This document shows, in pieces, positions 7,636-24,564 of a stretch of DNA of 64,000 nucleotides (the first letter of the stretch is position 1; every line of letters begins with the position of its first letter). The notes below the pieces were generated by a model. The model had not been told where the DNA came from. It worked only from the letters and a program-made list of their open reading frames with translations, and ran no database searches. Position numbers and translations under genes: made by a program. This stretch comes from Acidobacteriota bacterium (GTDB lineage: Bacteria > Acidobacteriota > Aminicenantia > Aminicenantales > Saccharicenantaceae), in contig JAKPXU010000148.1 in assembly GCA_029571905.1 (NCBI GenBank), forward strand, positions 18,225-82,224. The letters are read 5' to 3'.

Positions 7636-7660
7636 TTGATCTTCAGATGGTAAGGTGAAC

Positions 7661-9746: not shown

Positions 9747-9800
9747 AATCCAGATAGAAATCGCAGAGGCTAAGTTCTTTTTATAAAATAAACTTATCCC

Positions 9801-10709: not shown

Positions 10710-10809
10710 TATTATTTTGATTTAAAGGCAATGGCAATAATAATAAAAGAAGGCAATTTCCTGACCTGAGAATTGGGCATTAAAGGCTGAATTCCAGGCC
10801 TGGCACAGC

Positions 10810-10838
10810 TTGCAACTTAAGTTGTCTTTGTTTATAAT
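10810..10838 (+). promoter_or_regulatory. Sigma70-like promoter for tRNA-Asp
   Basis: TTGCAA, a 17-nt spacer, then TATAAT ending about 15 nt before the mature tRNA 5' end. Confidence 0.4.
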
Positions 10839-10853
10839 TTAGTCGCCCTGGGC

Positions 10854-10930
10854 GGGGTCGTAGTTCAGCTGGTTAGAACGCCGGCCTGTCACGCCGGAGG
10901 TCGCGAGTTCGAGCCTCGTCGGCCCCGCCA
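10854..10930 (+). tRNA. tRNA-Asp (GTC)
   Basis: 77-nt cloverleaf. The acceptor stem GGGGTCG pairs with CGGCCCC, the anticodon loop is CTGTCAC (anticodon GTC), the T-loop is TTCGAGC, and CCA is encoded. Confidence 0.9.
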
Positions 10931-11110
10931 CTTTTTCCACTCAATCTTTTGTTCTTGAAATTTTTGGGCTCCCCCGGTATCAATCCAGACGGAATATCTG
11001 TTTGGGACGCTCCTCTATCTCTCCGGTCAGCCAGAGATAGCAGCCAGTTACCTCTTTCCTTAATCTTTTTTGTGTGTTATATATAATTCTAATAAATTCA
11101 GGAGGAACCA

Positions 11111-11488
11111 ATGCCTGATAAAACCAAAATCCTGGTGATAGATGACGACCCGGCTATTTGTGTTTCAGTTAAAGCCATTCTGGAAGCCAGTGGCTATGAG
11201 GTGTTCACGGCTTTAAGCGGTAAAGAAGGGCTTGACCTTTTCCATCAGGTTGATCCAGATATTGTTCTGTGCGATATGATGATGGAAGATATAGATGCCG
11301 GGGCTAAAGTGGCCGGCGTGATCAAGAAAGAACAACCTGACCTGCCAGTTTTTTTGTTGAGCACTATCGGCGATGCCACCGCCCGAACTATTGGCCTTGA
11401 CGATCTCGGTTTTAATGGAGTTTTTCAGAAGCCAGTTAATTTTGACTTGCTGCTGAGTGTAATTGAAAAGCACAGGAAAAAGCCCTGA
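11111..11488 (+). CDS. Stand-alone CheY-like response-regulator receiver domain
   Basis: 125 aa with a DDD acidic pocket (VIDDDP) and the phospho-acceptor D in IVLCDMMME. There is no output domain. Confidence 0.8.
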   Translation: MPDKTKILVIDDDPAICVSVKAILEASGYEVFTALSGKEGLDLFHQVDPDIVLCDMMMEDIDAGAKVAGVIKKEQPDLPVFLLSTIGDATARTIGLDDLGFNGVFQKPVNFDLLLSVIEKHRKKP

Positions 11489-11517
11489 GGCCTGGCGGCC
11501 CGTTGACCAATTAGCAA

Positions 11518-12030
11518 ATGAGCATTTCTCTGGCTGATCTTTACCGGCAAAATTCAGATCTGGAAGCTTTTTGTCAGGAGGTCAGAAAACTGGGCGGTAA
11601 TTTTGAGCTGGACGCTCGTCAGATGGAAGCCCTTGGTCAGGCTTATTTTGAAGTCCATCCAGAGAAGTTTGTTCAAAGAAATCTGGATGAAGTCAGGCTG
11701 GGTTATCAACTGGCCCGATGCTGCTTGCTGGAAAAGGCTCTGGCCGGGCTGCCTCCTGCAGTTAAGGATTTTTTCAGGCAGGCTTTTGATCAGCCTGAAT
11801 GCATAGCTGGCCTCCTGGATGATTACAGGCGTTCGGAAAACCTGCCGCTTCTCGTCTCCTCTTTTAATTGCCTTCAAGCTTCACTGGACGAACTGAAAGC
11901 AGCCATTGATGAGTTACCTAAGGGGATGATTAAAGAAAGGTTTCTAGGAGGAATTTCGACTCTCTATAACACCAGGTATCTTCTGAGCATTTTTATTTCG
12001 CGTCTTGGCTCAAACGGTTTACAAAATTAG
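11518..12030 (+). CDS. Hypothetical protein (170 aa)
   Basis: An ORF with good coding periodicity and no motif I recognise. It lies between the orphan receiver and the hydrogenase-associated operon. Confidence 0.45.
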   Translation: MSISLADLYRQNSDLEAFCQEVRKLGGNFELDARQMEALGQAYFEVHPEKFVQRNLDEVRLGYQLARCCLLEKALAGLPPAVKDFFRQAFDQPECIAGLLDDYRRSENLPLLVSSFNCLQASLDELKAAIDELPKGMIKERFLGGISTLYNTRYLLSIFISRLGSNGLQN

Positions 12031-12105
12031 CTTATTCTGGTATCTTTTATTTTAAAACGCAAAAAACATATAACTCTCAAAACCTGACTGCCGAGGAGAA
12101 AAAGA

Positions 12106-14124
12106 TTGCCCTATTTTCGAGGAGTATGTAACTTCTGCGGGACTGGTTGTGGCCATCTGCTGCGAGTAGAAGGGAACCGGGTAAGAGGTGTTTATCCTCT
12201 CTCTGGTCATCCCTTAAGTCGCGGTCGGTTGTGCGTCCGCGGCTGGCATATTCATGAGCTTCTTCAGACGGAAGATAGAATTTCCCAGCCGCTCATTAAA
12301 GACGGTAGCAGTTTCAAGCCTGTTTCTTATGAAGAAGCTCTTGATTATGTGGTAGAAAGGGTAAAAAAACTGCCTGGCCGTCAGGTGGCTGTTCTTGGTT
12401 CTCCTCGGGCCTCCAACGAAGAGAATTATCTGTTAGGTAAGTTTGCCAGGGCAATCCTGAAAACAAATAATCTAAGTCTGTCGTCCGATGCCGGCCAGGA
12501 AGAAAGTGCCAGGGTGCTTCTTGAAGGCTGTGGCTGGCCAGCCATGACCGGTACGCTGGCCGAATTGAGACAGGCTGATTTTATCTTAGTGGTGGGCGGC
12601 GATCTGACCAAGCAGAATCCGATTATCGCCAGCGAAATCCATCATGCCCATCGAGCCGGGACTTTTTTAGCAACCATTTCCCCTCGGAAAACCCAAATGG
12701 CCAGGCTCAGCCAGCTTCATCTTAGACCTAAGCCTGGAACAATTTTTTACCTGCTTCAGGGTTTAGCCAGAGTTCTGGTTGAGGAGAAAGCTATTGATGA
12801 TGATTATTTATCAACATTTACAGTCAACAGCCAGACTTTCCTCGAAGAGTTGAAGCAGGTCGAAATAGAAAAGATAGTAGAAGCAACCGGTATTAGCAGA
12901 GAGCAGATGACCGGACTGGCCAGAAAATTGAAAGAATCTAATTCAGCTTGTGCCTTTTATCCAACGGGAGTGCAGAGCCTCGATCGCCGAACAATGGCTG
13001 CTCTCTTTAACCTTTTCCTTTTAGCCGGGAAAATTGGGCGGCGAGGAAGTGGGGTAAATCCGGTGACCGGCATCAGCAATCTGCTGGGCAGCTATGACAT
13101 GGGCCTTTCTCCTGTTTTCCTGCCTGGTTATGCTTCAGTTGAAGACGAGCTGGCCTGGGAGAGACTGGAAAATTTCTGGCAGACAAAGCTGGATCGCTGG
13201 TCAGGTAAGAATGTCGATACCTGCCTGTCAGAAGGGGAAGATATCAAAGCTCTTTTTGTGGTTGATCATGATGAGGAAATTATCAGACATGTCAATCGGA
13301 TAAGGCAGCTTGACTTAATAGTTTATTTTGGTGCTTATGAAAATCCATTTGCTTCTCTGGCTCATGTCATTTTTCCCAGAACGAGCTATGTAGAAGAGGA
13401 AGGAACTTATACCAACTCTGAACGCCGGGTTCAGCTGGTTCTGAAAAGAATCGAGCCGCCGGCTGGGGTCCGTCCCTTATGGAAAACCCTGACTAACCTG
13501 GCTCAGGCTCTCGGGCATGACTGGAATTATCATTCAGTTGAAAACATCATGAGTGAGATAAGTCAGCTGGTTCCTTATTATCGTAGTCTGACTTATGAAA
13601 AACTTAAGGCCAGACTTGGCTTGAAATGGCCAAATGATGATCTACATCCTGAAGGTACAGATTGCTTGCTGGTGGAAGAAGCAAGCCGGCGCTTCCGATT
13701 TGTTCAGGTAAATGGTCAGGAGAAAAAGCTGGCTGGTGAGCCCGAGGTTCAGAAAGATTTTCCTTTTAAATTAGTGGTGGGGCGGAGCAATTATTTCTGG
13801 CACCAGAATTCTGTCATGAAAAGGACTTTTATTCCCAAACGCGAATATAATGCTCTTCTCCTTCTCTACCCCAGAGGTTTTGTTGAAATTTCGAAAGAAG
13901 ATGCCAGCCGTCTCGGCCTGAGAGAAAAACAAGTAGTGAGAATAGTGGCTGAATCGGCTGAGGTCAGGCTGGCAGCCAGAATCTCAGGCGATATTCTGCC
14001 CGGTATGCTTTACATACCTTATTTTATTGATGAGATGATTCCCGAATTTCTTCACCGGCAGGTAGCTGATTTAGAAAAGAACGAAGAGTTCTTTCTGCCG
14101 GTCAGATTGGAAAAGGTGGTTTAA
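12106..14124 (+). CDS. Formate dehydrogenase H-like molybdopterin oxidoreductase subunit (catalytic residues apparently substituted)
   Basis: 672 aa. It has an N-terminal 4Fe-4S motif (CxxCxxxC...C) and is colinear with FdhF from memory (KFARA..TNN, GVNPV.G, C-terminal MGD cap). There is no in-frame TGA. Confidence 0.8.
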   Translation: MPYFRGVCNFCGTGCGHLLRVEGNRVRGVYPLSGHPLSRGRLCVRGWHIHELLQTEDRISQPLIKDGSSFKPVSYEEALDYVVERVKKLPGRQVAVLGSPRASNEENYLLGKFARAILKTNNLSLSSDAGQEESARVLLEGCGWPAMTGTLAELRQADFILVVGGDLTKQNPIIASEIHHAHRAGTFLATISPRKTQMARLSQLHLRPKPGTIFYLLQGLARVLVEEKAIDDDYLSTFTVNSQTFLEELKQVEIEKIVEATGISREQMTGLARKLKESNSACAFYPTGVQSLDRRTMAALFNLFLLAGKIGRRGSGVNPVTGISNLLGSYDMGLSPVFLPGYASVEDELAWERLENFWQTKLDRWSGKNVDTCLSEGEDIKALFVVDHDEEIIRHVNRIRQLDLIVYFGAYENPFASLAHVIFPRTSYVEEEGTYTNSERRVQLVLKRIEPPAGVRPLWKTLTNLAQALGHDWNYHSVENIMSEISQLVPYYRSLTYEKLKARLGLKWPNDDLHPEGTDCLLVEEASRRFRFVQVNGQEKKLAGEPEVQKDFPFKLVVGRSNYFWHQNSVMKRTFIPKREYNALLLLYPRGFVEISKEDASRLGLREKQVVRIVAESAEVRLAARISGDILPGMLYIPYFIDEMIPEFLHRQVADLEKNEEFFLPVRLEKVV

Positions 14125-14127
14125 GCA

Positions 14128-15195
14128 ATGTACTGGCTGACAAAAGAACAGTTGCCACTGCTGGTTCAAAAACTGGCTGAAGAATATAAAATCTTTGGTC
14201 CCCGCCATGACCGCGTTTCGGGTGAGGTGATCTTTGACCATCTACCCGATCTATCCGAGCTGGATCTGCAAGCGGCCATTCCTTATAATCCGCCCAAGTT
14301 CATTCTTTTCCCCCACTATGAAGAGATCCTTAAATACCGCTACCAACCAGAAACAAAAAAAGTCAGAATTGAACAGCTCAATCTCCTGGAACCGAAGGCT
14401 TTGATCGGTTTAAGATCCTGTGACCTGACTGGTTTGCTCTGTCTTGACCGCTTTTTCCTCGATCAGGAATATGTAGATGAATTTTATTTAGCTCACCGAA
14501 AAAAGTTGTTTATCGTTTCCAATACCTGCATCAGGCCATTTCCACAGTGTTTCTGCGTCTGTACGGACAGTGGCCCGGCGGCCAGGGAAGGCTTCGATCT
14601 TGATCTGACTTTTACCGGCCGCGATTACCTGGTTGAAGCTGGTTCGAAGAAAGGGCAGGCTTTGGTCGAAGAGCTAAATCTGGTCGAGGCTGATCCTGAG
14701 TCTTTAAATCTCAGAAAGCAGATAATAGACGATTCGGTCTCCTCTTTTGACCGCTTTGCTCTGGAAAACAAAGCCTGGATTTCGCGGGCAACCAATCGGT
14801 TGACCACCGGCTTTATCAAGCCTGAGGTCTGGGAATATATCGGGAATCAGTGTTTTGAATGTGGAGCTTGCTCTTTTGTTTGTCCTACCTGCTCCTGTTT
14901 TAATATTGAGGATGCTAATCTGGCCAGCGGTGAAACCAGCCGGCTGAGGACCTGGGACTCCTGTTCTTTTGAAGGTTATACCAAAATGGCCGGAGATCAT
15001 AATCCAAGAAAACCGGTTGAAGATCGTCGTAACAAAAGGTTCTTTTGCAAATTATCTTATTCCCAATCAAAAAAATATCTGAGACCTGGCTGTGTTGGCT
15101 GCGGTCGTTGTGCCAGGGTCTGTCCTGGCGATATAGGTTTGCCCAATGTCGTCACTTACATCAGGCGTGAAATCACTGGAGAATCTGGAGAATAA
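14128..15195 (+). CDS. 4Fe-4S cluster protein, sulfhydrogenase beta (HydB) / AsrA-like
   Basis: 355 aa with a C-terminal FeS motif (CFECGACSFVCPTCSCF) and a further motif CVGCGRCARVCP. The architecture resembles HydB/AsrA partners of HydG/AsrB-type flavoproteins. Confidence 0.65.
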   Translation: MYWLTKEQLPLLVQKLAEEYKIFGPRHDRVSGEVIFDHLPDLSELDLQAAIPYNPPKFILFPHYEEILKYRYQPETKKVRIEQLNLLEPKALIGLRSCDLTGLLCLDRFFLDQEYVDEFYLAHRKKLFIVSNTCIRPFPQCFCVCTDSGPAAREGFDLDLTFTGRDYLVEAGSKKGQALVEELNLVEADPESLNLRKQIIDDSVSSFDRFALENKAWISRATNRLTTGFIKPEVWEYIGNQCFECGACSFVCPTCSCFNIEDANLASGETSRLRTWDSCSFEGYTKMAGDHNPRKPVEDRRNKRFFCKLSYSQSKKYLRPGCVGCGRCARVCPGDIGLPNVVTYIRREITGESGE

Positions 15196-15200
15196 AAGCT

Positions 15201-16040
15201 ATGGTTAAAAATTTAGTGCCTATAGTCTCTATTCCAGAAGTTGCTACTATCGTTGATATCCGGGATGAAATTGAAGAGGTCAAAAGCTTTTATTTTACTC
15301 TGGACCGACCGGAAATCGAGGAAGCTTTTAAGATTCGCTCCGGCCAATTTATAATGTGCACCGTCTTTAGAGCAGGCGAATTTGCCGTTTCTTTGCCTTT
15401 CAGTCCGGAGAATGACCGCAAGCATATTTCGGTAAGGAAGGTGGGGAAAGTTACAGCTGCTTTGCATCAGCTTGAACCAGGCGACAAAATCGGAGTCAGA
15501 GGTCCCTTTGGCAATGGCTTTCCTTTTGAAGAAATAAAGGGAAGCAATATCATCTATGTAGCCGGTGGGATCGGCCTTATCCCACTTCGCTCGTCAATTG
15601 TTCATGTCCTCCAGCACCGGCAGGATTTCGGTCGGGTAATTCTGGTTTACGGGGCCAAAAGCTCAAAAGAACTGATGTACAAAGAAAGCATAAGAGAATG
15701 GCAGGCCACAGAAAACTTTGAGACCCACTTTACGATCGACCGACCCGAACCGGGTTGGTCCGGAGAGGTTGGTTTTGTCAACCACCTGACAGCTAAACTT
15801 GATTTGCCGGTCTCCAACACAGTGGCCTTTGTTTGTGGTCCGCCGGTTATGTTTAATGCTGTGATTAAAGAACTCAAGCTAAAGGGAATAAAAGAACAAA
15901 ATATTTATTCAACTCTGGAAAGGCATATGAAATGTGGGATTGGCAAGTGCCAGCATTGCGCTATAGGCCGGACACTGGTCTGTGTGGATGGACCCGTTTA
16001 TACCTATAAACAGATTAGAACCCTGGGAGAGCAAATCTAA
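15201..16040 (+). CDS. FAD/NAD(P)-binding oxidoreductase with C-terminal [2Fe-2S], HydG/AsrB/PyrK-like
   Basis: 279 aa with a ferredoxin-NADP reductase-like fold (GGIGLIPL) and a C-terminal CGIGKCQHC cluster motif as in PyrK/HydG. Confidence 0.72.
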   Translation: MVKNLVPIVSIPEVATIVDIRDEIEEVKSFYFTLDRPEIEEAFKIRSGQFIMCTVFRAGEFAVSLPFSPENDRKHISVRKVGKVTAALHQLEPGDKIGVRGPFGNGFPFEEIKGSNIIYVAGGIGLIPLRSSIVHVLQHRQDFGRVILVYGAKSSKELMYKESIREWQATENFETHFTIDRPEPGWSGEVGFVNHLTAKLDLPVSNTVAFVCGPPVMFNAVIKELKLKGIKEQNIYSTLERHMKCGIGKCQHCAIGRTLVCVDGPVYTYKQIRTLGEQI

Positions 16041-16580
16041 ATGGAACCCCTCGAGAGTTTACAGCAAATCCTGACCGGTCGAACCTGTTTGGTTGGCATC
16101 GGCAATAAATTGCGCGGCGATGACGGCGTTGGCCTCTATTTTATAGAATCAATTAAATTAAAAGGTTTCTTTCCTCCCGATAACCTGCTGACTGTGGAGG
16201 ATGTCCCTGAAAATTATGCTTTTCCCCTGGCCCAAAAAGCTGTTGAGAATGTAATTTTCATTGATGCTGTCCTCTTCAATGCTCCAGCCGGGACGGTTAT
16301 CTTTGGCCCGCTGACAGAGCTGGAAGAAGTCAGCCAGATTGTTTCAACCCATAAATTATCCCTGAGGTTAACTGCTCAACTACTGGAGAAAACCGGTAAA
16401 AAGGTTTTTCTTCTGGGCATTGTTCCTGAAACCACTGGTTTTGGCCAGGAATTGACCCCTCAGATCAAAAAAATCGCCGATGAACTGATAACCATCTTTG
16501 AAAAGACCCTGGATAAGGCTTCGCCTCTTGAGAACCCGGGCGAACGAGCAGCAATTCAGGTTGGAAGGGAGAAAGGCTGA
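16041..16580 (+). CDS. [NiFe]-hydrogenase maturation endopeptidase (HycI/HyaD family)
   Basis: 179 aa with the GIGNxxxGDDGVG signature (CLVGIGNKLRGDDGVGL). The start codon abuts the upstream stop. Confidence 0.8.
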   Translation: MEPLESLQQILTGRTCLVGIGNKLRGDDGVGLYFIESIKLKGFFPPDNLLTVEDVPENYAFPLAQKAVENVIFIDAVLFNAPAGTVIFGPLTELEEVSQIVSTHKLSLRLTAQLLEKTGKKVFLLGIVPETTGFGQELTPQIKKIADELITIFEKTLDKASPLENPGERAAIQVGREKG

Positions 16581-18478
16581 TGACTATCCTGTCAGGTTTC
16601 GGGCTCTTCTGGCTGAGTTTGCTTCTGGCTTCCTTCCTGGCGCTAATCTTAAAGAAAAAAACCAACTATCTTCGCTCCGCCGGGACTTTATTGCTCTGTC
16701 TGAGTTGCTTGATACTGATCTTTATCTCCCTATCTGTACTGGGGAAAGGCGGCTCTCCTCTCGAATTCGAGGTTAAAGTCGGGAGTTTTCATCTGCCATT
16801 TTTAATTGATGGCCTGTCGGCGCTCTTTCTCCTGCTTCTTTCTGTTTTAACTTTAGCTTCAGTCATTTTTTCGCTGGATTTTGTCAAAAAATATAAAGGT
16901 GACGAGTTCTGGAAATATTATCTGATATTGCCTCTGTTTATTGGTGGCCTGACCGGACTGCTGACCGTTGATGACCTCGGACCGGGCTTTACCCTGGCCT
17001 GGCAGTTAATGGTTATCTCTTCTTATCTTTTAATCAGATGGGGAAGGCCGACTAAAGTTTCAGCCCGACCGGCTTTAGTCTATCTTCTTTTTATGGAAGC
17101 CGCCTGGCTGATGATTACTGGTTCTGCTTTCCTGGCCAAAGGTTATATTTTTGGTGATTCGCTGGGTACTGTTGGCTTGAAGCTGGCTCAAAGTGGCCCC
17201 TGGCAGGCTATTTTATTTTTTAGCCTCCTCTTTCTCGGCTTTGGTATTAAAACGGGGGTTTTCCCTTTTGGACAATGGTGGATACCTGATGCCTATTCGA
17301 CTGCCTGGCCTCAGGTTTCTTCTCTTCTGGCCGGTCTTCTGGAAAAGACTGGCGTTTTCGGGTTGATTCGAATCTTTTTCTTTGTGGCCAAAAGCTCAGG
17401 CGCAGCTTTTAATCCTGATCTCTGGGGAAAGGTGCTGGTGGTAGCTGGAGTAATAACGCTTTTTATTGGGACTGTTCAGGCTATCAAACAGAGTGACTAT
17501 CTCCGCCTTCTGGCTTATAGCTCGATCGGACAGGTTGGCTACATAATTTTTGCTCTGGGGAGTAGCCTGCTGGCCTGGAATAGCTCCTTACCTCTGGCAA
17601 AATCTCTAGCCTCAGTTATTTTTATTGCTGCTGTTTATCATAGCCTTAACCATGGTATTTTTAAGGGTCTCCTTTTTCTACTGGGAGGAAACCTCCTTTA
17701 TGCTACCGGCACGCGTGACTTGAATCGCCTGGGTGGACTGCTATCTGTTATGCCAGTCAGTGGCTTTCTGGCGGCTATTGCTTCTTATTCTATCTCCGGT
17801 ATGCCAGCTTCCAGCGGTTTTGTCAGTAAATGGTTAATGATTTCCTCTAATTTTCTGGCCGGTCGGGGCAGCTTGCTTTTGACCCTTTCTGGCATTGTAG
17901 CTCTTTTCACTGCTGCTTTTACCTTAGCCTGCTATGTCAAATTTTTTGGTCTGGCTTTTACTTCTGCTGGTGCCAGCTGGAAACTGAAAAGAAGCATTAA
18001 GGAAGTCCCCTGGAAGTTGCTGGCTTCTGAAATCTTCCTGACCGTCATTTGCTTGAGCCAGGCTTTTCTTCCAATGGGCTATGTTAAGCTGATTGACCGC
18101 AGCCTTGGACTTTCTTCTGGCTTCCTTTTGTCAGAAGCTGGTGGGGATTTACTGAGTGGAAAGATGTTCAGTTTAAAAATTCATGACGGCCAAAGCCTCC
18201 TGGCGGCCACTTCCCCGCTTTTAATGCTGTTTCTCATTGTTTTATTGGCTTTCCTGGCCTATTGGTTTAGCCGGTCGGCACATCCAGCCGAGATCAAAGT
18301 TCCTGCCTGGCTTTGCGGATACCAGGATTTAAACTTGAATAATGTTTATGCTGACCGTCATGTCTTCTCTGATTTAAAGAAATTTTTCTGGTGGACGGGC
18401 GGCTCGCCTAAAAAAGTTATTGACGATAATGACCCGACTGTTTTGCCTGATAGCCAGCCAAAAGGTGAAGTAGAATGA
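16580..18478 (+). CDS. Group-4 hydrogenase membrane subunit, NuoL/HyfB/HycC-like antiporter-type
   Basis: 632 aa polytopic membrane protein in the complex I L / Mrp antiporter family. It overlaps the protease stop by ATGA. Confidence 0.78.
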   Translation: MTILSGFGLFWLSLLLASFLALILKKKTNYLRSAGTLLLCLSCLILIFISLSVLGKGGSPLEFEVKVGSFHLPFLIDGLSALFLLLLSVLTLASVIFSLDFVKKYKGDEFWKYYLILPLFIGGLTGLLTVDDLGPGFTLAWQLMVISSYLLIRWGRPTKVSARPALVYLLFMEAAWLMITGSAFLAKGYIFGDSLGTVGLKLAQSGPWQAILFFSLLFLGFGIKTGVFPFGQWWIPDAYSTAWPQVSSLLAGLLEKTGVFGLIRIFFFVAKSSGAAFNPDLWGKVLVVAGVITLFIGTVQAIKQSDYLRLLAYSSIGQVGYIIFALGSSLLAWNSSLPLAKSLASVIFIAAVYHSLNHGIFKGLLFLLGGNLLYATGTRDLNRLGGLLSVMPVSGFLAAIASYSISGMPASSGFVSKWLMISSNFLAGRGSLLLTLSGIVALFTAAFTLACYVKFFGLAFTSAGASWKLKRSIKEVPWKLLASEIFLTVICLSQAFLPMGYVKLIDRSLGLSSGFLLSEAGGDLLSGKMFSLKIHDGQSLLAATSPLLMLFLIVLLAFLAYWFSRSAHPAEIKVPAWLCGYQDLNLNNVYADRHVFSDLKKFFWWTGGSPKKVIDDNDPTVLPDSQPKGEVE

Positions 18479-20166
18479 GCAGAAAAGAAGAATTACTGAA
18501 CCTGCTTAAGGATAAATTGAGAGGGAAGTTTCTGGCCGGGAGCAGTCTGGAAGATAAGCGTTTGTTTATTGATATAAAAAAAGAAGCACTGGTCGAAACA
18601 GCCAGTCTCCTGATGAAAGAGGGCGCCCGCTATCAAATGGGCGTTGGCTATGAGGCCAAGAAGAATGGCCAGGGTCTGGCCATGGTTCACACCTTTGCCT
18701 TTGATGCTGATTCTCTGCTGGTGGCTATCAGGGCTTTAACAACAGAAGATAAGCCAGAATTTGATTCGCTCACCCCTTTCATTCCTGGTGCTGGCTGGTC
18801 AGAGCGTGAATATATTGACCTTCTCGGGCTTCATTTTAAAAATCATCCGAATCCCAAACGCCTGGTACTGTCTGATGACTGGCCGGAGGGAATTTATCCT
18901 CTTCGCCAGGATGTCCCTTATGACCTGATGCCCCCCTCGGCCGAAGAGGTAGCTTTCCGGCTCGACGAGGCTCCGCCTGGCAGTTCTATCATTCCCTTTG
19001 GACCTTTTCATGCCTGTCTGCATGAGCCTGCTCATTTTGCTGTTTATGTAGATGGGGAGGAAATCAAGGGCTGTGAATACAGAGGTTTTATGGTTCATCG
19101 GGGCATTGAAAAATTAGCCGCGACCGAGCTTACCTATAATGAAATACCTTTTGTAGCTGAACGAATTTGTGGGATTTGCGGCTCAGTGCATTCGGTCAAT
19201 TATGCTCAGGCTGTCGAGGCAGCTTCTGGCCTTAAAATTCCACGGCGAGCTGAGTTTATCAGAACAATTATGCTGGAAATAGAGAGGCTTCATTCCCACC
19301 TGATGTGGTTGGGAGTGGCCGGCCACCTCATCGGCTTTGATACTGTTTTTATGCAGGCCTGGAGAATAAGGGAGAAAATAATGTGGCTGGCCGAAAGTCT
19401 GACCGGCAATAGGAAAACTTATGGAATGGTCATCGTCGGGGGTGTAAGACGGGATATCGATCTGACCAAAGCTGACCTGATTAAGAAAACCCTGTCCGAA
19501 GTTGAAAAAGATATGCTGGCTCTGGAAAAGGCCATTATCAAAGATAAAGCTATCCACAGAAGAACTAAAGGTGTTGGCTATCTCTCCAGAGAAAAGGCGG
19601 TGGAGTGGAATCTGGTAGGACCGGTGGCCAGAGCCCGCGGACTGGATATGGATGCGAGGAGAGACCACCGCTATGCTGCTTATGATGAGGTGAAGTTTGA
19701 TGTTGTGGTGGCTGATTCCAGTGATGTCTGGGGAACACTGGTCGTCAGGATTAAAGAGATTTATGAGGCCATAAAGATTATCCATCAGTGCCTGGGGAAA
19801 CTGGCTTCGGAGCTCCAGGGTTCTCCCCTTGCTATTGAGATAGAAGGATCGATTCCAGCTGGTCAACAGGGATTGTCGGTAGTGGAGGCGCCGCGGGGAG
19901 AAGCTGTCCACTACGTCCTTACCGGTGATGATAACCGTCCAGAACGCTGGCGGGTGCGAGCGCCAACTTATCCCAACCTCCAGGCCGTACCTGATATGTT
20001 GCTCAATAACAAGCTGGCTGATTTTCCCATTATAGTTGGCTCAATTGATCCCTGCATATCCTGCACTGACCGGGTAGCGGTTATAGATAGAAAAACAGCT
20101 GCTGACAGAATTTTAAGCCGACAGGAGCTGGAAAAACTGTCCAGAGAGGTGAGGTCTAAGACATGA
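18475..20166 (+). CDS. Group-4 [NiFe]-hydrogenase large subunit with fused NuoC-like N-terminal domain (HycE-like)
   Basis: 563 aa. It carries an N-terminal NuoC-like domain, the L1 motif RICGICGSVHS and the C-terminal L2 motif DPCISCTDR. Confidence 0.9.
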   Translation: MSRKEELLNLLKDKLRGKFLAGSSLEDKRLFIDIKKEALVETASLLMKEGARYQMGVGYEAKKNGQGLAMVHTFAFDADSLLVAIRALTTEDKPEFDSLTPFIPGAGWSEREYIDLLGLHFKNHPNPKRLVLSDDWPEGIYPLRQDVPYDLMPPSAEEVAFRLDEAPPGSSIIPFGPFHACLHEPAHFAVYVDGEEIKGCEYRGFMVHRGIEKLAATELTYNEIPFVAERICGICGSVHSVNYAQAVEAASGLKIPRRAEFIRTIMLEIERLHSHLMWLGVAGHLIGFDTVFMQAWRIREKIMWLAESLTGNRKTYGMVIVGGVRRDIDLTKADLIKKTLSEVEKDMLALEKAIIKDKAIHRRTKGVGYLSREKAVEWNLVGPVARARGLDMDARRDHRYAAYDEVKFDVVVADSSDVWGTLVVRIKEIYEAIKIIHQCLGKLASELQGSPLAIEIEGSIPAGQQGLSVVEAPRGEAVHYVLTGDDNRPERWRVRAPTYPNLQAVPDMLLNNKLADFPIIVGSIDPCISCTDRVAVIDRKTAADRILSRQELEKLSREVRSKT

Positions 20167-21062
20167 AGGTGGTGGCTGTCTTCGTCAATTTAATCTATTT
20201 TCTCCTGCTGGCCCCTTTTCTGGAGGGGGTGATGAGAAAGCTAACGGCCTGGATTCAATCGAGGAAAGGCCCACCGCTCTATCAGCCTTATCTTGATCTT
20301 CTGAAACTTTTAGGCAAGGAAAATTTAAACTCAGGTGGGAACTGGGCTTTTCGACTGGCGCCTATTCTGTCTTTTAGCTCAATGCTGGCGGCTATCGCCC
20401 TTATCCCTCTGACCGGTCAGGCCAATATTTTAGCTCATTCATCAGACTTAATGACTCTGATTTATTTTTTGACCCTGAGCGGTTTTTGTCTGCTGGTCGG
20501 GGCTTTAGGCAGTGGGAATCCCTTTGCGGCGGTGGGGGCCAGCCGGGAAATGATGACAACGGTTATGCTCGAACCGGTTCTGGCTATGCTCTTGATTCTG
20601 GGTACAGTTAGAATCGGTAGCTTCTCTTTGAGTGCCGCCGTCTCGGGCGTGGCGGTCAGCAGAGGTGTTTCCTATTTTCTGATGCTGGTTGTTTATCTTC
20701 TGGCTCTTCAGGCTTTTGCCGCCAGACAGCCTTTTGATATCGCCGAAGCTGAGGTTGAAATTCTGGAAGGACCCTATATGGAATATAGCGGACCGAATTA
20801 TGCTCTACTCCGTTATACTTTAAATCTTAAGAGAATGTTTTATGCCTGGCTTCTTGTCTCTTGCTTTTTAAGTTTTATTCTGCCAGCCAATTTTCTTTTT
20901 AGTCTGCTGTTGCAGACTGTGCTGATTATCGTGGTCTTTATTTTAATTTCGCTTATTGGAGCGACTCATCCACGTTTCCGAATAGACCAGGCCTTAAAAT
21001 ATTATGCATTGCTTTTAATTTTAGCCCTGATAGCAGTTGGTTTGGCGGTTAAGGGCTGGTGA
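20163..21062 (+). CDS. Hydrogenase membrane subunit, NuoH/HycD-like
   Basis: 299 aa multi-TM protein in the NuoH family; translationally coupled by a 4-nt overlap. Confidence 0.78.
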   Translation: MKVVAVFVNLIYFLLLAPFLEGVMRKLTAWIQSRKGPPLYQPYLDLLKLLGKENLNSGGNWAFRLAPILSFSSMLAAIALIPLTGQANILAHSSDLMTLIYFLTLSGFCLLVGALGSGNPFAAVGASREMMTTVMLEPVLAMLLILGTVRIGSFSLSAAVSGVAVSRGVSYFLMLVVYLLALQAFAARQPFDIAEAEVEILEGPYMEYSGPNYALLRYTLNLKRMFYAWLLVSCFLSFILPANFLFSLLLQTVLIIVVFILISLIGATHPRFRIDQALKYYALLLILALIAVGLAVKGW

Positions 21063-21083: not shown

Positions 21084-21647
21084 ATGTGGCTCTGGAATAA
21101 AATCAAACAACTGGCCATTCCTTCCAGGACAGGCGTCGTTACTCTGCGTTATCCTTATAAGCCCAGGCCGGCTCCCGCCGGTTTCCGCGGCCAGCCTGTC
21201 TGGGATCATACCAAATGCATTGGTTGTGCCGGCTGCGCCAGCAACTGCCCGGCCAGAACCATTTTCCTCCGGGATATCTGTCAGGAAATAAGGATTCTCC
21301 TTTATGATTCGTCTCGCTGCACTTATTGCGGTAGATGTGCTGACCTCTGTCCGGAAAAAGCCATCACCATGAGCGAAAATTTTGAACTGGCTACCGATAA
21401 TCGCCAGGATATAACTCAGACCATAGAGCTGTTTATGATGACCTGTCAACGCTGTGGCCGCTGCTACGACCTGGAAATAAAGAATGCCCTTGATAAGCTG
21501 CAAATGCTTGGCTACCGTTATGATAGCCTGGAGGTCAGAAAAGTCATAAGGCAGTCAACGCCTGAATTGGAACCCGAGCATTTAGAGAAAACAGCTACTT
21601 ATCGCCGTCCCGAAAAACTGGAGAAGTCGTCATGTGGAAAAGACTAA
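21084..21647 (+). CDS. 2x[4Fe-4S] ferredoxin subunit, NuoI/HycF-like
   Basis: Two CxxCxxCxxxCP motifs (CIGCAGCASNCP and CTYCGRCADLCP). Confidence 0.8.
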   Translation: MWLWNKIKQLAIPSRTGVVTLRYPYKPRPAPAGFRGQPVWDHTKCIGCAGCASNCPARTIFLRDICQEIRILLYDSSRCTYCGRCADLCPEKAITMSENFELATDNRQDITQTIELFMMTCQRCGRCYDLEIKNALDKLQMLGYRYDSLEVRKVIRQSTPELEPEHLEKTATYRRPEKLEKSSCGKD

Positions 21648-22192
21648 CAGAGAAGGCTTTTCGCCGCTCAGTCTGGGTTTATCATTGCAACAGCGGAGCC
21701 TGCAATGGTTGTGATATAGAAATCCTGAATGTTTTAACGCCTTATTATGATGTGGAGAGATTCGGCATCAGGTTAGTTGCCTCTCCCCGTCATGCCGATG
21801 CCATTCTTCTCTCAGGGGCAGTGACCAGACCAACGCTGCCTCTGGTTAAGAAAGCCTATCAGGCAGTGCCAGCCCCGAAGCTGGTCTTTGCCGTCGGGTC
21901 CTGTGCCATCGGGGGAGGATGCTGGTATGACACCTATAACGTGACTGGTGGTGGGGATAAAGCCATCCCGGTCAATTATTTTATTCCGGGCTGTCCGCCC
22001 CGGCCGGAAGCCATCATCTTCGGGGTAGCTCTGGCTCTGGGCCTGGTTGACAAGAAAGTGGCACCGGTTGAGCTCAAGCAGATGGAGTTCCCGGTTGATA
22101 TGTACCGGCAAGCAAAAATTCTGGAAAGCAACCGCGTAATATATAAACTTCTGGGCGAAGAAGATGACCGCCTTCTATCCGGGAGGAAATGA
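21632..22192 (+). CDS. Group-4 [NiFe]-hydrogenase small subunit, NuoB/HycG-like
   Basis: Motifs CNGCDIEI, GSCAIGGG and PGCPPRP typical of NuoB-type proximal-cluster subunits. Confidence 0.88.
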   Translation: MWKRLTEKAFRRSVWVYHCNSGACNGCDIEILNVLTPYYDVERFGIRLVASPRHADAILLSGAVTRPTLPLVKKAYQAVPAPKLVFAVGSCAIGGGCWYDTYNVTGGGDKAIPVNYFIPGCPPRPEAIIFGVALALGLVDKKVAPVELKQMEFPVDMYRQAKILESNRVIYKLLGEEDDRLLSGRK

Positions 22193-22599
22193 CGATGGCC
22201 AGAATTCTATTGGTTGATGACGACCGTGACCTGACCGACAGCTTAAGTCAGATCTTGCGTCTTAAAGGCTATGAGGTGGTTGTAGCTTATAACGGGGCAG
22301 AAGGATTAAAGAAACTACTGGAAACGAAACCGGATCTGGTCATTATGGATGTTATGATGGAAACAGACACGGCTGGCTTTGAAGCTATTTATAAAATCAG
22401 AAGTGAACGTCCTGATTCTAAATTCAGAGACTTTAAGGATATTCCCATTATTATCCTGACCGCTATTGACCAGGTGACCAACTCGAGATTTTCTCTTGAT
22501 CAGGAAGAGAGCTTTTTACCGGGTCGCAATGAGTTTTTGAATAAACCGGTTGATCCTGATGAGCTATTGGAAAAAATAGAAAAAAACCTCAAAAAATAA
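22189..22599 (+). CDS. Stand-alone CheY-like receiver domain (paralogue of 11111-11488)
   Basis: 136 aa with a DDD pocket and the phospho-acceptor D in LVIMDVMMETDTAG. Its start overlaps the hydrogenase small-subunit stop (ATGA). Confidence 0.8.
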   Translation: MTMARILLVDDDRDLTDSLSQILRLKGYEVVVAYNGAEGLKKLLETKPDLVIMDVMMETDTAGFEAIYKIRSERPDSKFRDFKDIPIIILTAIDQVTNSRFSLDQEESFLPGRNEFLNKPVDPDELLEKIEKNLKK

Positions 22600-22601
22600 C
22601 C

Positions 22602-24545: not shown

Positions 24546-24564
24546 AACCGGAAGGAGAAAAGAT

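What the first reader, a model, noticed from the sequence alone, without database searches (positions are those of the whole stretch)
12106..14124. FdhH-like molybdopterin subunit with the catalytic Sec/Cys, His and Arg positions apparently substituted
By my recollection of E. coli FdhF, the segment TNN...LVFVFG aligns without gaps to TNNLSLSSDAGQEES...FILVVG here. That places FdhF Sec140-His141 opposite Gly-Gln. The essential Arg333 in VNPVRGQNN sits opposite Thr in VNPVTGISN. The N-terminal 4Fe-4S cysteines are retained and there is no in-frame TGA. So the protein keeps the electron-transfer cluster but probably cannot oxidise formate at a molybdenum centre in the canonical way. It may be a NuoG-like degenerate scaffold or electron-transfer subunit, or it may use a different ligand or substrate.
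Basis: partly seen in the sequence, partly recalled or inferred. Interest (0 to 1): 0.65.

Follow-up and report, generated by a model that had tools for sequence, protein, structure and literature searches.

The report
Dead formate dehydrogenase subunit in NAD(P)H-linked hydrogenase
This gene encodes a formate-dehydrogenase look-alike that keeps its iron-sulfur cluster but has lost every residue needed to oxidise formate; it sits in a conserved operon with an NAD(P)H-binding module and a membrane-bound hydrogenase, much as subunit NuoG does in respiratory complex I, and similar clusters have been noted in silico since 2019.

Summary
BLASTP, HMMER and MAFFT alignments all put Gly130-Gln131 opposite E. 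coli FdhF Sec140-His141, Thr321 opposite Arg333 and Arg45 opposite Lys44. All four [4Fe-4S] cysteines are kept, and the ORF has no in-frame stop codon.

This is not decay. Gly at the ligand position and Arg at the Lys44 position occur in 120 of 120 homologues (43-100% identity).

The pterin-dinucleotide motifs are also remodelled. Five residues are deleted from the G-x-(N/D)-P loop in 120/120. Other changes are G402D, D429G, D179K/R, N176D, H181N and T435F. The family keeps 45-60% of core columns, against 82% in canonical enzymes and 42% in NuoG.

The gene opens a nine-gene operon found in 61 of 62 species-level MAGs (Aminicenantes, Spirochaetota). It encodes sulfhydrogenase-type beta and gamma subunits (NAD(P)H/FAD/FeS), a HycI protease and a five-subunit HycE-type [NiFe] hydrogenase with intact Ni-Fe motifs. 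There is no HycB.

Most likely this is a catalytically dead, cluster-bearing adaptor in an NAD(P)H-linked energy-converting hydrogenase.

Similar clusters were noted in silico in 2019 and 2026, with no biochemistry. I rate it a new variant of a known kind, of moderate interest.

The parts
12106..14124 (+). FdhH-like molybdopterin-family subunit, 672 aa. It keeps the FS0 cysteines but lacks the Sec/Cys ligand, His, Arg and Lys of formate dehydrogenases.
   Evidence: Pfam PF04879, PF00384 and PF01568 match. TIGR01591 scores 423.7 bits, below its 666.25 cut-off. The AF2 model has pLDDT 89.2 and pTM 0.91. Foldseek top hits are FDHs with TMq 0.86-0.90.
12127..12234 (+). Codons of the four [4Fe-4S] (FS0) cysteines: C8 (12127-12129), C11 (12136-12138), C15 (12148-12150) and C43 (12232-12234).
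   Evidence: One search gives the codons. The Cys are conserved in 117-119 of 120 homologues; the remainder are N-terminally truncated sequences.
12238..12240 (+). Arg45, in place of the strictly conserved FDH Lys44.
   Evidence: Arg in 120/120 family members. Lys in 63/63 canonical relatives. In EcFDH-H, K44R keeps the cluster but leaves only 7.1% activity (PMC12176258).
12493..12498 (+). Gly130-Gln131, in place of the Sec/Cys140-His141 metal ligand and catalytic His.
13066..13068 (+). Thr321, in place of catalytic Arg333 (VNPVTGISN).
13264..13275 (+). Asp387-His388-Asp389-Glu390: the shortened loop that replaces the G-E-(N/D)-P-x-x-S-D-P dinucleotide-binding loop. Five residues are deleted and Gly402 is replaced by Asp.
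   Evidence: The gap is present in 120/120 members. D387 occurs in 117/120 and D389 in 120/120.
14128..15195 (+). Sulfhydrogenase beta-like (ShyB/HydB/AsrA-like) iron-sulfur subunit, 355 aa.
   Evidence: Pfam Fer4_22 at 1.5e-28. NCBIfam ShyB, AsrA and HydB match. PDB 9nez_B (P. furiosus SHI beta) at 3e-37. Present directly after the FdhH-like gene in 62/62 loci.
15201..16040 (+). Sulfhydrogenase gamma-like subunit with FAD, NAD(P)H and [2Fe-2S] binding domains, 279 aa.
   Evidence: Pfam NAD_binding_1, FAD_binding_6 and DHODB_Fe-S_bind match. PDB 9nez_C (SHI gamma) at 4e-54. Present in 62/62 loci.
16041..16580 (+). HycI-type hydrogenase maturation endopeptidase, 179 aa.
   Evidence: Pfam HycI and TIGR00072 match. 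Detected in 57/62 loci.
16580..18478 (+). HyfB/HycC-like antiporter-type membrane subunit, 632 aa. It is the only such subunit in the operon.
   Evidence: Pfam Proton_antipo_M matches. NF005086 (hydrogenase 4 subunit B) at 2.9e-89, below its cut-off. Present in 61/62 loci.
18475..20166 (+). [NiFe] hydrogenase large subunit, a fused NuoC-NuoD (HycE-type) protein of 563 aa. It has both Ni-Fe CxxC motifs and a C-terminal extension for HycI cleavage.
   Evidence: PDB 7z0s_E (E. coli HycE) at 1.2e-121. ERICGICGSVH and DPCISCTDR align to the HycE motifs. The motifs are conserved across related loci.
20163..21062 (+). HycD/NuoH-like membrane subunit, 299 aa.
   Evidence: Pfam NADHdh at 3e-54. Present in 61/62 loci.
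21084..21647 (+). HycF/NuoI-like 2x[4Fe-4S] subunit, 187 aa.
   Evidence: NF009053 (FHL iron-sulfur subunit) at 3.2e-32. Present in 61/62 loci.
21632..22192 (+). HycG/NuoB-like hydrogenase small subunit, 186 aa.
   Evidence: Pfam Oxidored_q6 at 1e-27, and NF005012 is above its cut-off. Present in 61/62 loci.
22189..24545 (+). Response regulator (22189-22599) and sensor histidine kinase (22602-24545), translationally coupled to the end of the operon.
   Evidence: One search gives the ORFs. A receiver-domain gene follows the operon in 62/62 loci and the kinase in 50/62. The same arrangement is seen in L002, L004 and L009.
11111..12030 (+). Upstream response regulator (11111-11488) and a 170-aa protein with no family match (11518-12030). 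Both are clade-specific companions of the operon.
   Evidence: The 170-aa protein has no Pfam or NCBIfam hit. It is found within 1.5 kb upstream in 35/62 loci, all in the Aminicenantes-type clade. The same pair occurs in L003.

Best explanation
ORF 12106-14124 encodes a cytoplasmic protein with the complete four-domain fold of FdhH-type formate dehydrogenases and an intact [4Fe-4S] (FS0) site. It has lost the metal ligand (Sec/Cys to Gly), the catalytic His (Gln here) and Arg (Thr), and the cluster/pterin-bridging Lys (Arg). At least one of its two pterin-guanine-dinucleotide sites is structurally dismantled.

It is the first gene of a conserved nine-gene operon. The other genes encode a sulfhydrogenase-type beta (FeS) and gamma (FAD, [2Fe-2S], NAD(P)H) pair, a HycI protease, and a five-subunit HycE-type membrane-bound [NiFe] hydrogenase.

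The most likely mechanism is this. The formate-oxidising centre is dead. The relic is kept as a cluster-bearing adaptor, as the molybdopterin-like domain of NuoG is kept in complex I. Electrons pass between NAD(P)H/NAD(P)+ at the gamma flavin and H+/H2 at the Ni-Fe site through the beta, HycF and HycG clusters. FS0 lies either on this path or on a side branch. The HycD and HyfB-like membrane subunits couple the reaction to ion movement: pmf-assisted H2 evolution from NAD(P)H, or energy-conserving H2 oxidation.

Shown: the substitutions, their conservation, the fold, and the operon with its intact Ni-Fe motifs.

Inferred: absence of Mo/W-pterin, the adaptor role, NAD(P)H as the partner, and the direction and ion coupling.
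For: (1) The catalytic residues are absent in three independent alignments. The ligand column is Gly and the Lys44 column is Arg in 120/120 homologues.

(2) Dinucleotide-binding motifs conserved in FdhF, F420-FDH, HDCR FdhF, FdsA, FdnG and NapA are replaced by different residues that are conserved within the family:
- five residues of the G-x-(N/D)-P-x-x-S loop are deleted in 120/120;
- G402D (117/120) and D429G (114/120);
- D202 becomes S, C or D;
- N176D (118/120) and H181N (120/120);
- the acidic residue 179 becomes K/R (118/120);
- T435F (117/120) and H585F/Y;
- the C-terminal Asn662 and Lys679 are lost.

(3) The family keeps 45-60% of 137 core columns. Sixty-three canonical Cys-His-Arg relatives keep a mean of 0.82 (minimum 0.66), and cofactor-less E. 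coli NuoG keeps 0.42.

(4) Lys at position 44 is present in 63/63 canonical relatives. Experimentally, K44R in EcFDH-H keeps the cluster but leaves 7.1% activity, and simulations predict a more mobile Mo(MGD)2 cofactor (PMC12176258).

(5) The FS0 region is the most conserved part of the protein.

(6) The operon supplies another electron partner. The beta and gamma proteins match P. furiosus SHI beta and gamma (3e-37 and 4e-54). The order FdhH-like, beta, gamma, HycI, HyfB, large subunit, HycD, HycF, HycG is kept in 61/62 species-level genomes, down to 35-38% identity.

(7) A sister lineage with the same operon (P0127) has Tyr, not Gly, at the ligand position, and has Arg and His at positions 402 and 429. 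The operon type therefore has no shared new active-site chemistry.

(8) The closest canonical FDH (P0133) is flanked by beta-like, gamma-like and MobA-like genes. This points to an FdhA-beta-gamma NAD(P)-linked FDH as the ancestral module.

(9) Only 1 of 89 related loci has a MobA-like ORF near the operon. The 64-kb window has no Moco, FdhD or formate-channel gene and no Moco riboswitch.
Against: The whole 672-aa protein is under strong purifying selection, and the replaced pocket residues are themselves conserved. This could mean that a ligand is still bound.

Several motifs that contact the cofactor in real enzymes persist: S99-x-R101-x-S103-N104-E105, G433-T-x-T-N-x-E-R-R-x-Q443 and G-R...W565-H566. 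NuoG keeps versions of the first two as well, so they do not discriminate.

Other Mo enzymes work without a protein ligand. Arsenite oxidase is one example; this rests on my own knowledge.

A published AlphaFold analysis of related clusters proposes a third, unknown substrate at the Fdh-like arm (PMC13582414).

I could not inspect model coordinates, run a multimer prediction, or test whether the host genomes have Moco biosynthesis genes. No biochemical data exist.
Confidence: 0.55

Rival explanations
1. The subunit still binds a Mo/W-pterin, or one pterin or another cofactor, without a protein ligand. It then forms a third catalytic arm, so that the complex bifurcates or confurcates electrons among H+/H2, NAD(P)+/NAD(P)H and an unidentified substrate.
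For: This was proposed for related group 4b clusters from AlphaFold models with a three-way FeS branch (PMC13582414). The remodelled pocket residues are strongly conserved. Some cofactor-contact motifs are retained. The full-length fold is kept at high confidence.
Against: The five-residue deletion with Gly-to-Asp in one dinucleotide loop, and the loss of Asp429, Asp202, His181, Asn662 and Lys679, are hard to reconcile with a bis-MGD site. Core-motif retention is at the NuoG level. A sister lineage with the same operon has different residues at the ligand site and loop sites. No recognisable bifurcating flavin module is present. No Moco maturation genes lie nearby.
Confidence: 0.17
2. The relic is cofactor-less, but its role is to dock ferredoxin. 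FS0 is an entry or exit port for low-potential electrons. The complex would then take both reduced ferredoxin and NAD(P)H, or act as a ferredoxin:NAD(P)+ oxidoreductase linked to H2.
For: The FS0 face is the most conserved region, including an invariant R45-G46-W47..H50-E51 patch. The isolated catalytic subunit of T. onnurineus Fdh3 reduces ferredoxin by itself (PMC8965080). The operon has no HycB-type ferredoxin subunit. The hosts are predicted fermenters that would produce reduced ferredoxin; that is inference.
Against: There is no direct evidence. The conserved FS0 patch could equally be the interface with beta or HycF. Energy-converting hydrogenases usually take ferredoxin at the HycF/NuoI-like subunit; this rests on my own knowledge.
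Confidence: 0.15
3. It is still a formate dehydrogenase that uses non-canonical residues, and the operon is an ordinary formate hydrogenlyase.
For: Its best database matches are FDH alpha subunits. The hydrogenase core is HycE-type. In one related genome a pyruvate formate-lyase pair lies just upstream (L003).
Against: The ligand, His (in this clade), Arg and Lys are all missing. TIGR01591 is below its cut-off. K44R alone costs 93% of activity in EcFDH-H. HycB, which docks FdhF in E. coli FHL, is absent. No formate channel or FdhD gene is in the window.
Confidence: 0.03
4. It is a decaying pseudogene or an assembly artefact.
For: None, apart from the loss of catalytic residues.
Against: The reading frame is intact, with a ribosome-binding site and tight coupling to the next gene. 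There are 120 full-length homologues with invariant positions. Relatives occur in 191 species genomes. The structure prediction is confident.
Confidence: 0.01

Closest known systems
Cys/Sec-less Fdh-like subunits with SHI-beta/gamma homologues in group 4 [NiFe] hydrogenase clusters: Front Microbiol 2026 (PMC13582414), and the 'enigmatic' Saganbacteria RX5A cluster in Nat Commun 2019 (PMC6349859)
   Same: An Fdh-like protein with one 4Fe-4S domain and no metal-ligand Cys/Sec sits next to AsrA/SHI-beta-like and AsrB/SHI-gamma-like genes and a membrane-bound group 4 hydrogenase. It is known only from MAGs and in silico analysis.
   Different: Those clusters are described as group 4b or Mrp-Mbh type. 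They have several antiporter-like subunits, a HyfE-like subunit and extra ferredoxin (CooF-like) subunits. This operon is compact: one antiporter-like subunit, HycD, a fused NuoC-NuoD large subunit closest to E. coli HycE, and no separate ferredoxin. Those papers do not analyse the pterin-binding motifs; one of them posits an unknown third substrate. I did not test whether their Fdh-like proteins belong to the same sequence family.
E. coli formate hydrogenlyase-1 (FdhF-HycBCDEFG; PDB 7z0s/7z0t)
   Same: The large subunit matches HycE at 1.2e-121 with both CxxC motifs. HycD-, HycF-, HycG-, HycC/HyfB- and HycI-like genes are present. The FdhF-like subunit has the same fold (TMq 0.88 to 7z0t_A).
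   Different: FdhF has Sec140, His141, Arg333 and Lys44 plus Mo-bis-MGD, and it docks on HycB. Here all four residues are replaced, HycB is absent, and sulfhydrogenase beta/gamma subunits are present instead.
NuoG / Nqo3 / 75-kDa subunit of respiratory complex I (C-terminal molybdopterin-like domain with cluster N7)
   Same: It is an FDH-derived domain that keeps the FS0-equivalent cluster site but no Mo-pterin. It sits in a complex that links NAD(P)H oxidation to a membrane arm homologous to HycD and HyfB. E. coli NuoG shows the same kinds of changes in the aligned columns: Lys44 to Arg, Asn176 to Asp, Gly402 to Glu, and S-P-R-A-S in place of S-S-R-x-T. That NuoG lacks the cofactor and that N7 is off-pathway rests on my own knowledge.
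   Different: NuoG has an N-terminal [2Fe-2S] plus 2x[4Fe-4S] domain, which is absent here. TIGR01973 scores 134 bits, below its 470 cut-off. The NADH module there is NuoE/F (FMN), not SHI-beta/gamma (FAD). The terminal acceptor is quinone, not protons. This protein is much closer to true FDHs than to NuoG (TMq 0.86-0.90 against 0.69).
P. furiosus soluble hydrogenase I beta/gamma subunits (PDB 9nez) and AsrA/AsrB
   Same: The beta and gamma proteins match at 3e-37 and 4e-54 with the same domain sets.
   Different: In SHI they serve a cytoplasmic group 3b hydrogenase. Here they are encoded next to an FDH relic and a membrane-bound group 4 hydrogenase.
NAD(P)-linked cytoplasmic FDHs with accessory FeS and NAD(P) subunits (T. 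onnurineus Fdh3, PMC8965080; the uncharacterised FdhA-beta-gamma locus L012)
   Same: An FdhH-size catalytic subunit is combined with FeS and NAD(P)-binding partners. L012 has beta-like (32% identity) and gamma-like (36% identity) genes next to the closest canonical relative.
   Different: Those alpha subunits keep Cys-His-Arg and Lys, and Fdh3 contains W. They are soluble and have no hydrogenase genes in the cluster.
Other cofactor-less members of the Mo/W-bis-PGD superfamily (QrcB; ActB of alternative complex III)
   Same: The molybdopterin-oxidoreductase fold is retained as a structural or electron-transfer subunit without a metal site. NCBIfam names QrcB 'molybdopterin-binding-like', and the query hits it at 1.3e-22, below its cut-off.
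   Different: These are periplasmic, quinone-interacting complexes that are not specifically related to this family. The statement that they lack the cofactor rests on my own knowledge.

Membership tests
Metal-dependent formate dehydrogenase catalytic subunit (FdhF/FdhA, TIGR01591) | Sec or Cys ligand to Mo/W (EcFdhF position 140) | tested here: not met
   Gly130 here, and Gly in 120/120 homologues.
Metal-dependent formate dehydrogenase catalytic subunit (FdhF/FdhA, TIGR01591) | Catalytic His141 and Arg333 | tested here: not met
   Gln131 and Thr321 here. Across the family the columns are His 89 / Gln 23 / Leu 7 and Thr 95 / Ala 18 / Pro 5 / Ser 2.
Metal-dependent formate dehydrogenase catalytic subunit (FdhF/FdhA, TIGR01591) | Strictly conserved Lys44 between FS0 and the pterin | tested here: not met
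   Arg45 here and Arg in 120/120 homologues. Lys in 63/63 canonical relatives.
Metal-dependent formate dehydrogenase catalytic subunit (FdhF/FdhA, TIGR01591) | Score above the curated equivalog cut-off | tested here: not met
   423.7 bits against a cut-off of 666.25.
Metal-dependent formate dehydrogenase catalytic subunit (FdhF/FdhA, TIGR01591) | N-terminal four-Cys [4Fe-4S] (FS0) motif | tested here: met
   C8, C11, C15 and C43 are present and conserved. Whether the cluster is actually bound was not tested.
Mo/W-bis-PGD (DMSO reductase) superfamily fold | Molybdop_Fe4S4, Molybdopterin and Molydop_binding domains; four-domain architecture | tested here: met
   All three Pfam domains are above their cut-offs. 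The AF2 model has TMq 0.86-0.90 to solved FDHs and Nap.
Mo/W-bis-PGD (DMSO reductase) superfamily fold | Binding of two pyranopterin guanine dinucleotides | tested here: inconclusive
   The motifs are degraded: a 5-residue loop deletion, G402D, D429G, D202S and H181N. Core retention is 0.45-0.60, against 0.82 for canonical enzymes and 0.42 for NuoG. Some motifs are kept. Cofactor occupancy itself cannot be read from sequence.
NuoG (complex I subunit G, TIGR01973) | N-terminal [2Fe-2S] plus two [4Fe-4S] ferredoxin-like/HydA-like domain preceding the molybdopterin-like domain | tested here: not met
   The protein starts 7 residues before the first FS0 cysteine. The NuoG model matches only profile positions 214-606, at 134.4 bits against a cut-off of 470.
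Formate hydrogenlyase (Hyc-type, group 4a-like) complex | HycE-type large subunit with Ni-Fe CxxC motifs, plus HycG, HycF, HycD, an antiporter-like subunit and the HycI protease | tested here: met
   The motifs are conserved across loci. The HydDB subgroup (4a or 4b) was not assigned.
Formate hydrogenlyase (Hyc-type, group 4a-like) complex | Catalytically competent FdhF, and the HycB ferredoxin that docks it | tested here: not met
   The FdhF-like subunit lacks its catalytic residues. No HycB-like gene lies between 12106 and 22192. Sulfhydrogenase beta/gamma genes are there instead.
Cys-less Fdh-like / SHI-beta-gamma / group 4 hydrogenase clusters (PMC13582414, PMC6349859) | Fdh-like gene without Cys/Sec, adjacent to SHI-beta and SHI-gamma homologues and a group 4 [NiFe] hydrogenase | tested here: met
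.
Cys-less Fdh-like / SHI-beta-gamma / group 4 hydrogenase clusters (PMC13582414, PMC6349859) | Multiple antiporter-like subunits, a HyfE-like subunit and several ferredoxin (CooF-like) subunits, as described for the group 4b / Mrp-Mbh type | tested here: not met
   The operon has one Proton_antipo_M gene, one NADHdh gene and one HycF-like gene, with no further ORFs. The same compact set is found in 61/62 related loci.
Group 4f / Ehr-type complexes (a lead from the hydrogenase literature) | Large-subunit homologue lacking the Ni-Fe ligands (as described in 10.1101/328856) | tested here: not met
   Both CxxC motifs are present and conserved. This lead was rejected.

The most novel reading that the evidence does not exclude
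The conserved, remodelled pocket of the Fdh-like subunit is a working site rather than a filled-in cavity. It would hold a ligand-free Mo/W-pterin, a single dinucleotide or another cofactor. The compact complex would then be a membrane-bound, three-armed [NiFe] hydrogenase that couples H2, NAD(P)H and a still unknown third substrate (possibly by confurcation) to ion translocation. No such enzyme class has been characterised.
Probability: 0.12. Interest if true: 0.85.

Novelty: new variant of a known kind. Interest (0 to 1): 0.45.

Why it matters
Complex I is thought to have grown from a membrane-bound hydrogenase by adding an NADH module and an FDH-derived subunit (NuoG) that lost its molybdenum site. 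This operon is a living enzyme at a comparable stage. It combines a formate-hydrogenlyase-type hydrogenase, an FdhH subunit that is still clearly FDH-like but catalytically dead, and an NAD(P)H-binding module. The closest canonical relative is still paired with the same beta/gamma partners.

If the complex links NAD(P)H and H2 at the membrane, it would give fermenters such as Aminicenantes and uncultured Spirochaetota a way to exchange pyridine-nucleotide reducing power with H2 at the cost or gain of ion-motive force. No ferredoxin or flavin-based bifurcation would be needed.

Practically, these genes are currently annotated as 'formate dehydrogenase' or 'formate hydrogenlyase' in MAG studies. 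Formate-cycling inferences drawn from them are probably wrong.

Tried and rejected
- Group 4f/Ehf lead. The papers found describe Ehr-type large subunits without Ni-Fe ligands. Here the motifs are intact and the best match is HycE, so I rejected it.
- Papers on Staphylothermus marinus and on methanogenic bioprocess MAGs contained nothing relevant.
- A literature search for a published list of FdhH MGD-contact residues found nothing. I used conservation across six cofactor-binding enzymes, plus NuoG as a control, instead.
- Pocket inspection of the AF2 model was not possible, because the tool returns no coordinates. The afdb50 fold library was unavailable.
- tblastn with E. coli FdhD, FdhE, MobA/B, MoaA/B/C/E and MoeA/B against the window and 89 related loci (1.59 Mb) gave only a MobA-like hit in L033 and one in the canonical-FDH locus L012. 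This is weak negative evidence, because such genes are usually elsewhere in the genome.
- An Rfam scan found no Moco riboswitch, only a tmRNA and two tRNAs.
- The promoter/terminator scan of 10600-12300 was uninformative.
- The pseudogene and assembly-artefact reading was rejected on conservation.
- An ordinary-FHL reading was rejected on the missing catalytic residues and the missing HycB.

Full report
**1. The observation**

ORF 12106..14124 (+) encodes 672 residues from a TTG start. A GAGGAG motif ends 7 nt upstream, and there is no internal stop, so there is no in-frame TGA. I translated E. coli fdhF from NC_000913 and aligned it with BLASTP: 26% identity, E = 1e-77. Query 116-175 aligns to FdhF 126-185 without gaps.

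- Sec140-His141 fall opposite Gly130-Gln131.
- VNPVRGQNN falls opposite VNPVTGISN, so Arg333 is opposite Thr321.
- C-L-K-G falls opposite C-V-R-G, so Lys44 is opposite Arg45.

HMMER alignments to solved FDHs (9t1s_L, 7qv7_S, 9wxb_B) and MAFFT alignments with six Mo/W enzymes give the same placement. The four FS0 cysteines are C8, C11, C15 and C43.

**2. It is a conserved family, not decay**

A search of 5.8 billion proteins returned 560 hits at E <= 1e-20. The best 120 are full length at 43-100% identity, from Aminicenantes/Saccharicenans, Acidobacteria and Spirochaetes MAGs. In these 120:

- the ligand column is Gly in 120/120;
- the Lys44 column is Arg in 120/120;
- the Arg333 column is Thr, Ala, Pro or Ser;
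- the His141 column is His 89, Gln 23, Leu 7;
- the FS0 cysteines are conserved.

So Gln131 is a subclade feature, whereas the Gly is universal in the family. The first 55 residues, which form the FS0 domain, hold 15 invariant positions. The other 617 residues hold 42.

An AlphaFold2 model built from a 46-sequence alignment is confident (pLDDT 89.2, pTM 0.91). It superposes on FdhH, ForCE1, RaFDH and NapA at TMq 0.86-0.90, and on mycobacterial NuoG at 0.69. TIGR01591 (Fdh-alpha) scores 423.7 bits, below its 666.25 cut-off.

**3. The cofactor pocket**

I took 137 alignment columns that are identical in at least five of six cofactor-binding enzymes: FdhF, F420-FDH, HDCR FdhF, FdsA, FdnG and NapA. 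The family consensus keeps 81 of them.

The changed positions fall in the sequence motifs that, in this superfamily, form the two Rossmann-like dinucleotide sites. That assignment is my own knowledge of the fold, not a measurement made here.

- G-x-N-x-x-x-x-H-P becomes G-x-D-x-x-(K/R)-x-N-P: N176D in 118/120, acidic residue 179 to K/R in 118/120, H181N in 120/120.
- (V/I)-D-P-R becomes S/C/D-(S/P)-R.
- G-E-(N/D)-P-x-x-S-D-P becomes D-H-D-E, with five residues deleted in 120/120 and G402D in 117/120.
- Q-D-I-F-x-T-E-T becomes F/Y-G-A-Y-x-N-x-F: D429G in 114/120 and T435F in 117/120.
- H585 becomes F or Y.
- The C-terminal Asn662 and Lys679 are lost.

Per-sequence retention of the 137 columns is 0.45-0.60 in the family. 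It averages 0.82 (minimum 0.66) in 63 canonical Cys-His-Arg relatives and is 0.42 in E. coli NuoG.

E. coli NuoG shows parallel changes in the aligned columns: Lys44 to Arg, Asn176 to Asp, Gly402 to Glu, and S-P-R-A-S. Lys44 is invariant in all 63 canonical relatives. The published K44R variant of EcFDH-H keeps its cluster but retains only 7.1% activity, and simulations predict a more mobile Mo(MGD)2 (PMC12176258). In that enzyme Asp179 and Ser180 join Lys44 in the hydrogen-bond network to the proximal pterin. Here those positions are Lys169 and Gln170.

Some contact motifs survive: S-x-R-x-S-N-E, G-T-x-T-N-x-E-R-R-x-Q and G-R...W-H. NuoG keeps versions of the first two as well. My reading is that at least one dinucleotide site is dismantled. 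I could not inspect coordinates, so cofactor loss remains an inference.

**4. Genomic context**

The following genes are on the same strand and tightly coupled:

- 14128-15195: Fer4_22 protein matching ShyB/HydB/AsrA.
- 15201-16040: FAD/NAD(P)/[2Fe-2S] protein matching ShyC/HydG/AsrB.
- 16041-16580: HycI-type protease.
- 16580-18478: HyfB-like antiporter-type subunit.
- 18475-20166: fused NuoC-NuoD large subunit.
- 20163-21062: HycD/NuoH-like subunit.
- 21084-21647: HycF-like subunit.
- 21632-22192: HycG/NuoB-like subunit.
- 22189 onward: a response regulator and a histidine kinase.

Against solved structures, the large subunit matches E. coli HycE at 1.2e-121 with both CxxC motifs and a C-terminal extension. 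The beta and gamma proteins match P. furiosus SHI beta and gamma at 3e-37 and 4e-54. There is no HycB-type gene.

The rest of the window is housekeeping: ligA, murB, aroA, citrate synthase, der, rpsB-tsf-pyrH-frr, an RND efflux system, lepA and tsaD. It has no hyp, Moco, fdhD or formate-channel genes and no Moco riboswitch.

**5. Conservation of the operon**

Homologues at 45% identity (L002, L004) and 38% identity (L009) have the identical gene order, including the trailing response regulator.

A scan of one genome per GTDB species found 191 genomes that encode relatives. The best 80 are all MAGs. The window is 98% identical at protein level to Acidobacteriota MAG STD1_135.

Of 62 loci with at least 8.3 kb downstream, 62 have beta and gamma in place, and 61 have HyfB, the large subunit, HycD, HycF and HycG. 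The motifs ERICGICGSVH and DPC(F/I)SCTDR are conserved.

**6. Relatives outside the family**

An exhaustive search of 1.84 billion representatives gave 869 hits below 1e-30. Beyond the family's own representatives (P0121-P0126, P0128), three points stand out.

- P0127 (35% identity) has Tyr at the ligand position and Arg and His at positions 402 and 429, yet it lies in the same nine-gene operon.
- P0129 (Ala at the ligand position) and P0130 (Gly, but with most dinucleotide motifs kept) are followed by beta-like and gamma-like genes on short contigs.
- The closest canonical Cys-His-Arg-Lys enzyme, P0133 (about 32-33% identity), is flanked by beta-like (32%), gamma-like (36%) and MobA-like genes.

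This suggests that an FdhA-beta-gamma NAD(P)-linked FDH was the ancestral module. It became attached to a Hyc-type hydrogenase and lost formate chemistry. The different residues at the dead site in sister lineages argue against a shared new catalytic function.

Of the 133 full-length sequences among the best 150 representatives, 70 lack Cys at the ligand position. Catalytic loss is therefore common in this part of sequence space.

**7. Mechanism proposed**

Shown: a dead FDH active site, an intact FS0 motif, an NAD(P)H/FAD/FeS pair, and a complete Hyc-type [NiFe] hydrogenase, all in one conserved operon.

Inferred: electrons move between NAD(P)H at the gamma flavin and protons at the Ni-Fe site through the gamma [2Fe-2S], the beta clusters, HycF and HycG. 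The FDH relic serves as a structural adaptor. Its FS0 is either a relay or a side cluster like N7 of NuoG. HycD and the HyfB-like subunit couple the reaction to ion movement. Because NAD(P)H to H2 is uphill under standard conditions, the complex would either consume ion-motive force or work at low H2. In the reverse direction it could conserve energy. I give this 0.55.

Rivals are:

- a retained ligand-free cofactor with a third substrate, as proposed from AlphaFold models of related clusters (0.17);
- a ferredoxin-docking role for the relic (0.15);
- genuine formate oxidation (0.03);
- a pseudogene (0.01).

**8. What is already known**

Two papers describe close analogues in passing. Matheus Carnevali et al. 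2019 called a Saganbacteria region 'enigmatic'. It held an unclassifiable FdhH-like protein, asrA-like, asrB-like and cooF-like genes, and an Mrp-Mbh-type hydrogenase.

A September 2026 paper on Sec-containing group 4 hydrogenases states that about half of the Fdh subunits in group 4b clusters lack the Cys/Sec ligand and that those clusters carry SHI-beta/gamma homologues. It suggests bifurcation with an unidentified substrate.

Neither paper analyses the pterin-binding motifs, and neither has any biochemistry. The operon here is a compact Hyc-type version: one antiporter-like subunit and no extra ferredoxins. It occurs in Aminicenantes and Spirochaetota. I therefore class it as a new variant of a known, uncharacterised kind. 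The NuoG parallel and the canonical FdhA-beta-gamma relative are the added value of this analysis.

**9. Verdict**

Interest is moderate (0.45). The finding is real, widespread and evolutionarily instructive. Current annotations as 'formate dehydrogenase' or 'formate hydrogenlyase' are probably wrong. However, the core fact is already in print, and the function remains inferred.

Noticed in passing
window 11518-12030 (+), with 11111-11488 (+): A 170-aa protein with no Pfam or NCBIfam match, preceded by a single-domain response regulator, lies directly upstream of the operon. The pair recurs within 1.5 kb upstream in 35/62 related loci (the Aminicenantes-type clade) and in L003. It is not upstream in the Spirochaetota loci. 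It may be a clade-specific regulator or assembly factor.
   Followed up: partly
window 22189-25629 (+): A response regulator overlaps the stop codon of the hydrogenase small-subunit gene. It is followed by a 647-aa sensor kinase and a hybrid receiver-kinase (24565-25629). A receiver gene follows the operon in 62/62 related loci, so a dedicated two-component system appears to belong to the locus. Its signal is unknown.
   Followed up: partly
L003 (GCA_041304185.1, JBGLNG010000001.1) 5558-17043: In this 3.2-Mb contig the operon stops after the antiporter-like gene. That gene is called as an 893-aa product with a Ribosomal_L28 hit at its end, and relA follows on the other strand. The large subunit, HycD, HycF and HycG are missing at this place. 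A pyruvate formate-lyase activase and a glycyl-radical enzyme sit just upstream. This could be a rearrangement or a misassembly.
   Followed up: no
L086 and L089 (MAGs labelled delta proteobacterium / Proteobacteria): These have a permuted operon. The HyfB-like and HycD-like genes lie upstream of the FdhH-like gene, and the large subunit directly follows HycI.
   Followed up: no
Representatives P0127-P0269: Of 133 full-length sequences among the 150 best representative relatives, 70 lack Cys at the metal-ligand position (Tyr, Glu, Ser, Ala, Gly, Gln, Asn and others). Many are 870-940 aa with an N-terminal extension of about 220 residues, which is a NuoG/FdsA-like architecture. About half of these Cys-less sequences also have Arg in place of Lys44. 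Catalytically dead FDH-like proteins seem to be numerous and of several independent origins.
   Followed up: partly
L033 8238-8693 (-): This is the only family locus of 89 searched that has a MobA-like (NTP_transf_3-type) ORF, about 1.3 kb upstream of the FdhH-like gene (27.7% identity to E. coli MobA, E = 4e-11). It may be an unrelated nucleotidyltransferase.
   Followed up: no
window 25715-26066 (+), 10854-10927 (+), 48881-48964 (+): A tmRNA gene (195.7 bits) and two tRNA genes. The tRNA at 10854-10927 lies in the gap between the HtpX-like protease gene and the upstream response regulator.
   Followed up: no
window 47450-48601 (-): A 383-aa protein matches Pfam baeRF_family10 (bacterial archaeo-eukaryotic release factor-like family 10). 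It lies next to a B12-binding radical SAM gene (48940-50349).
   Followed up: no
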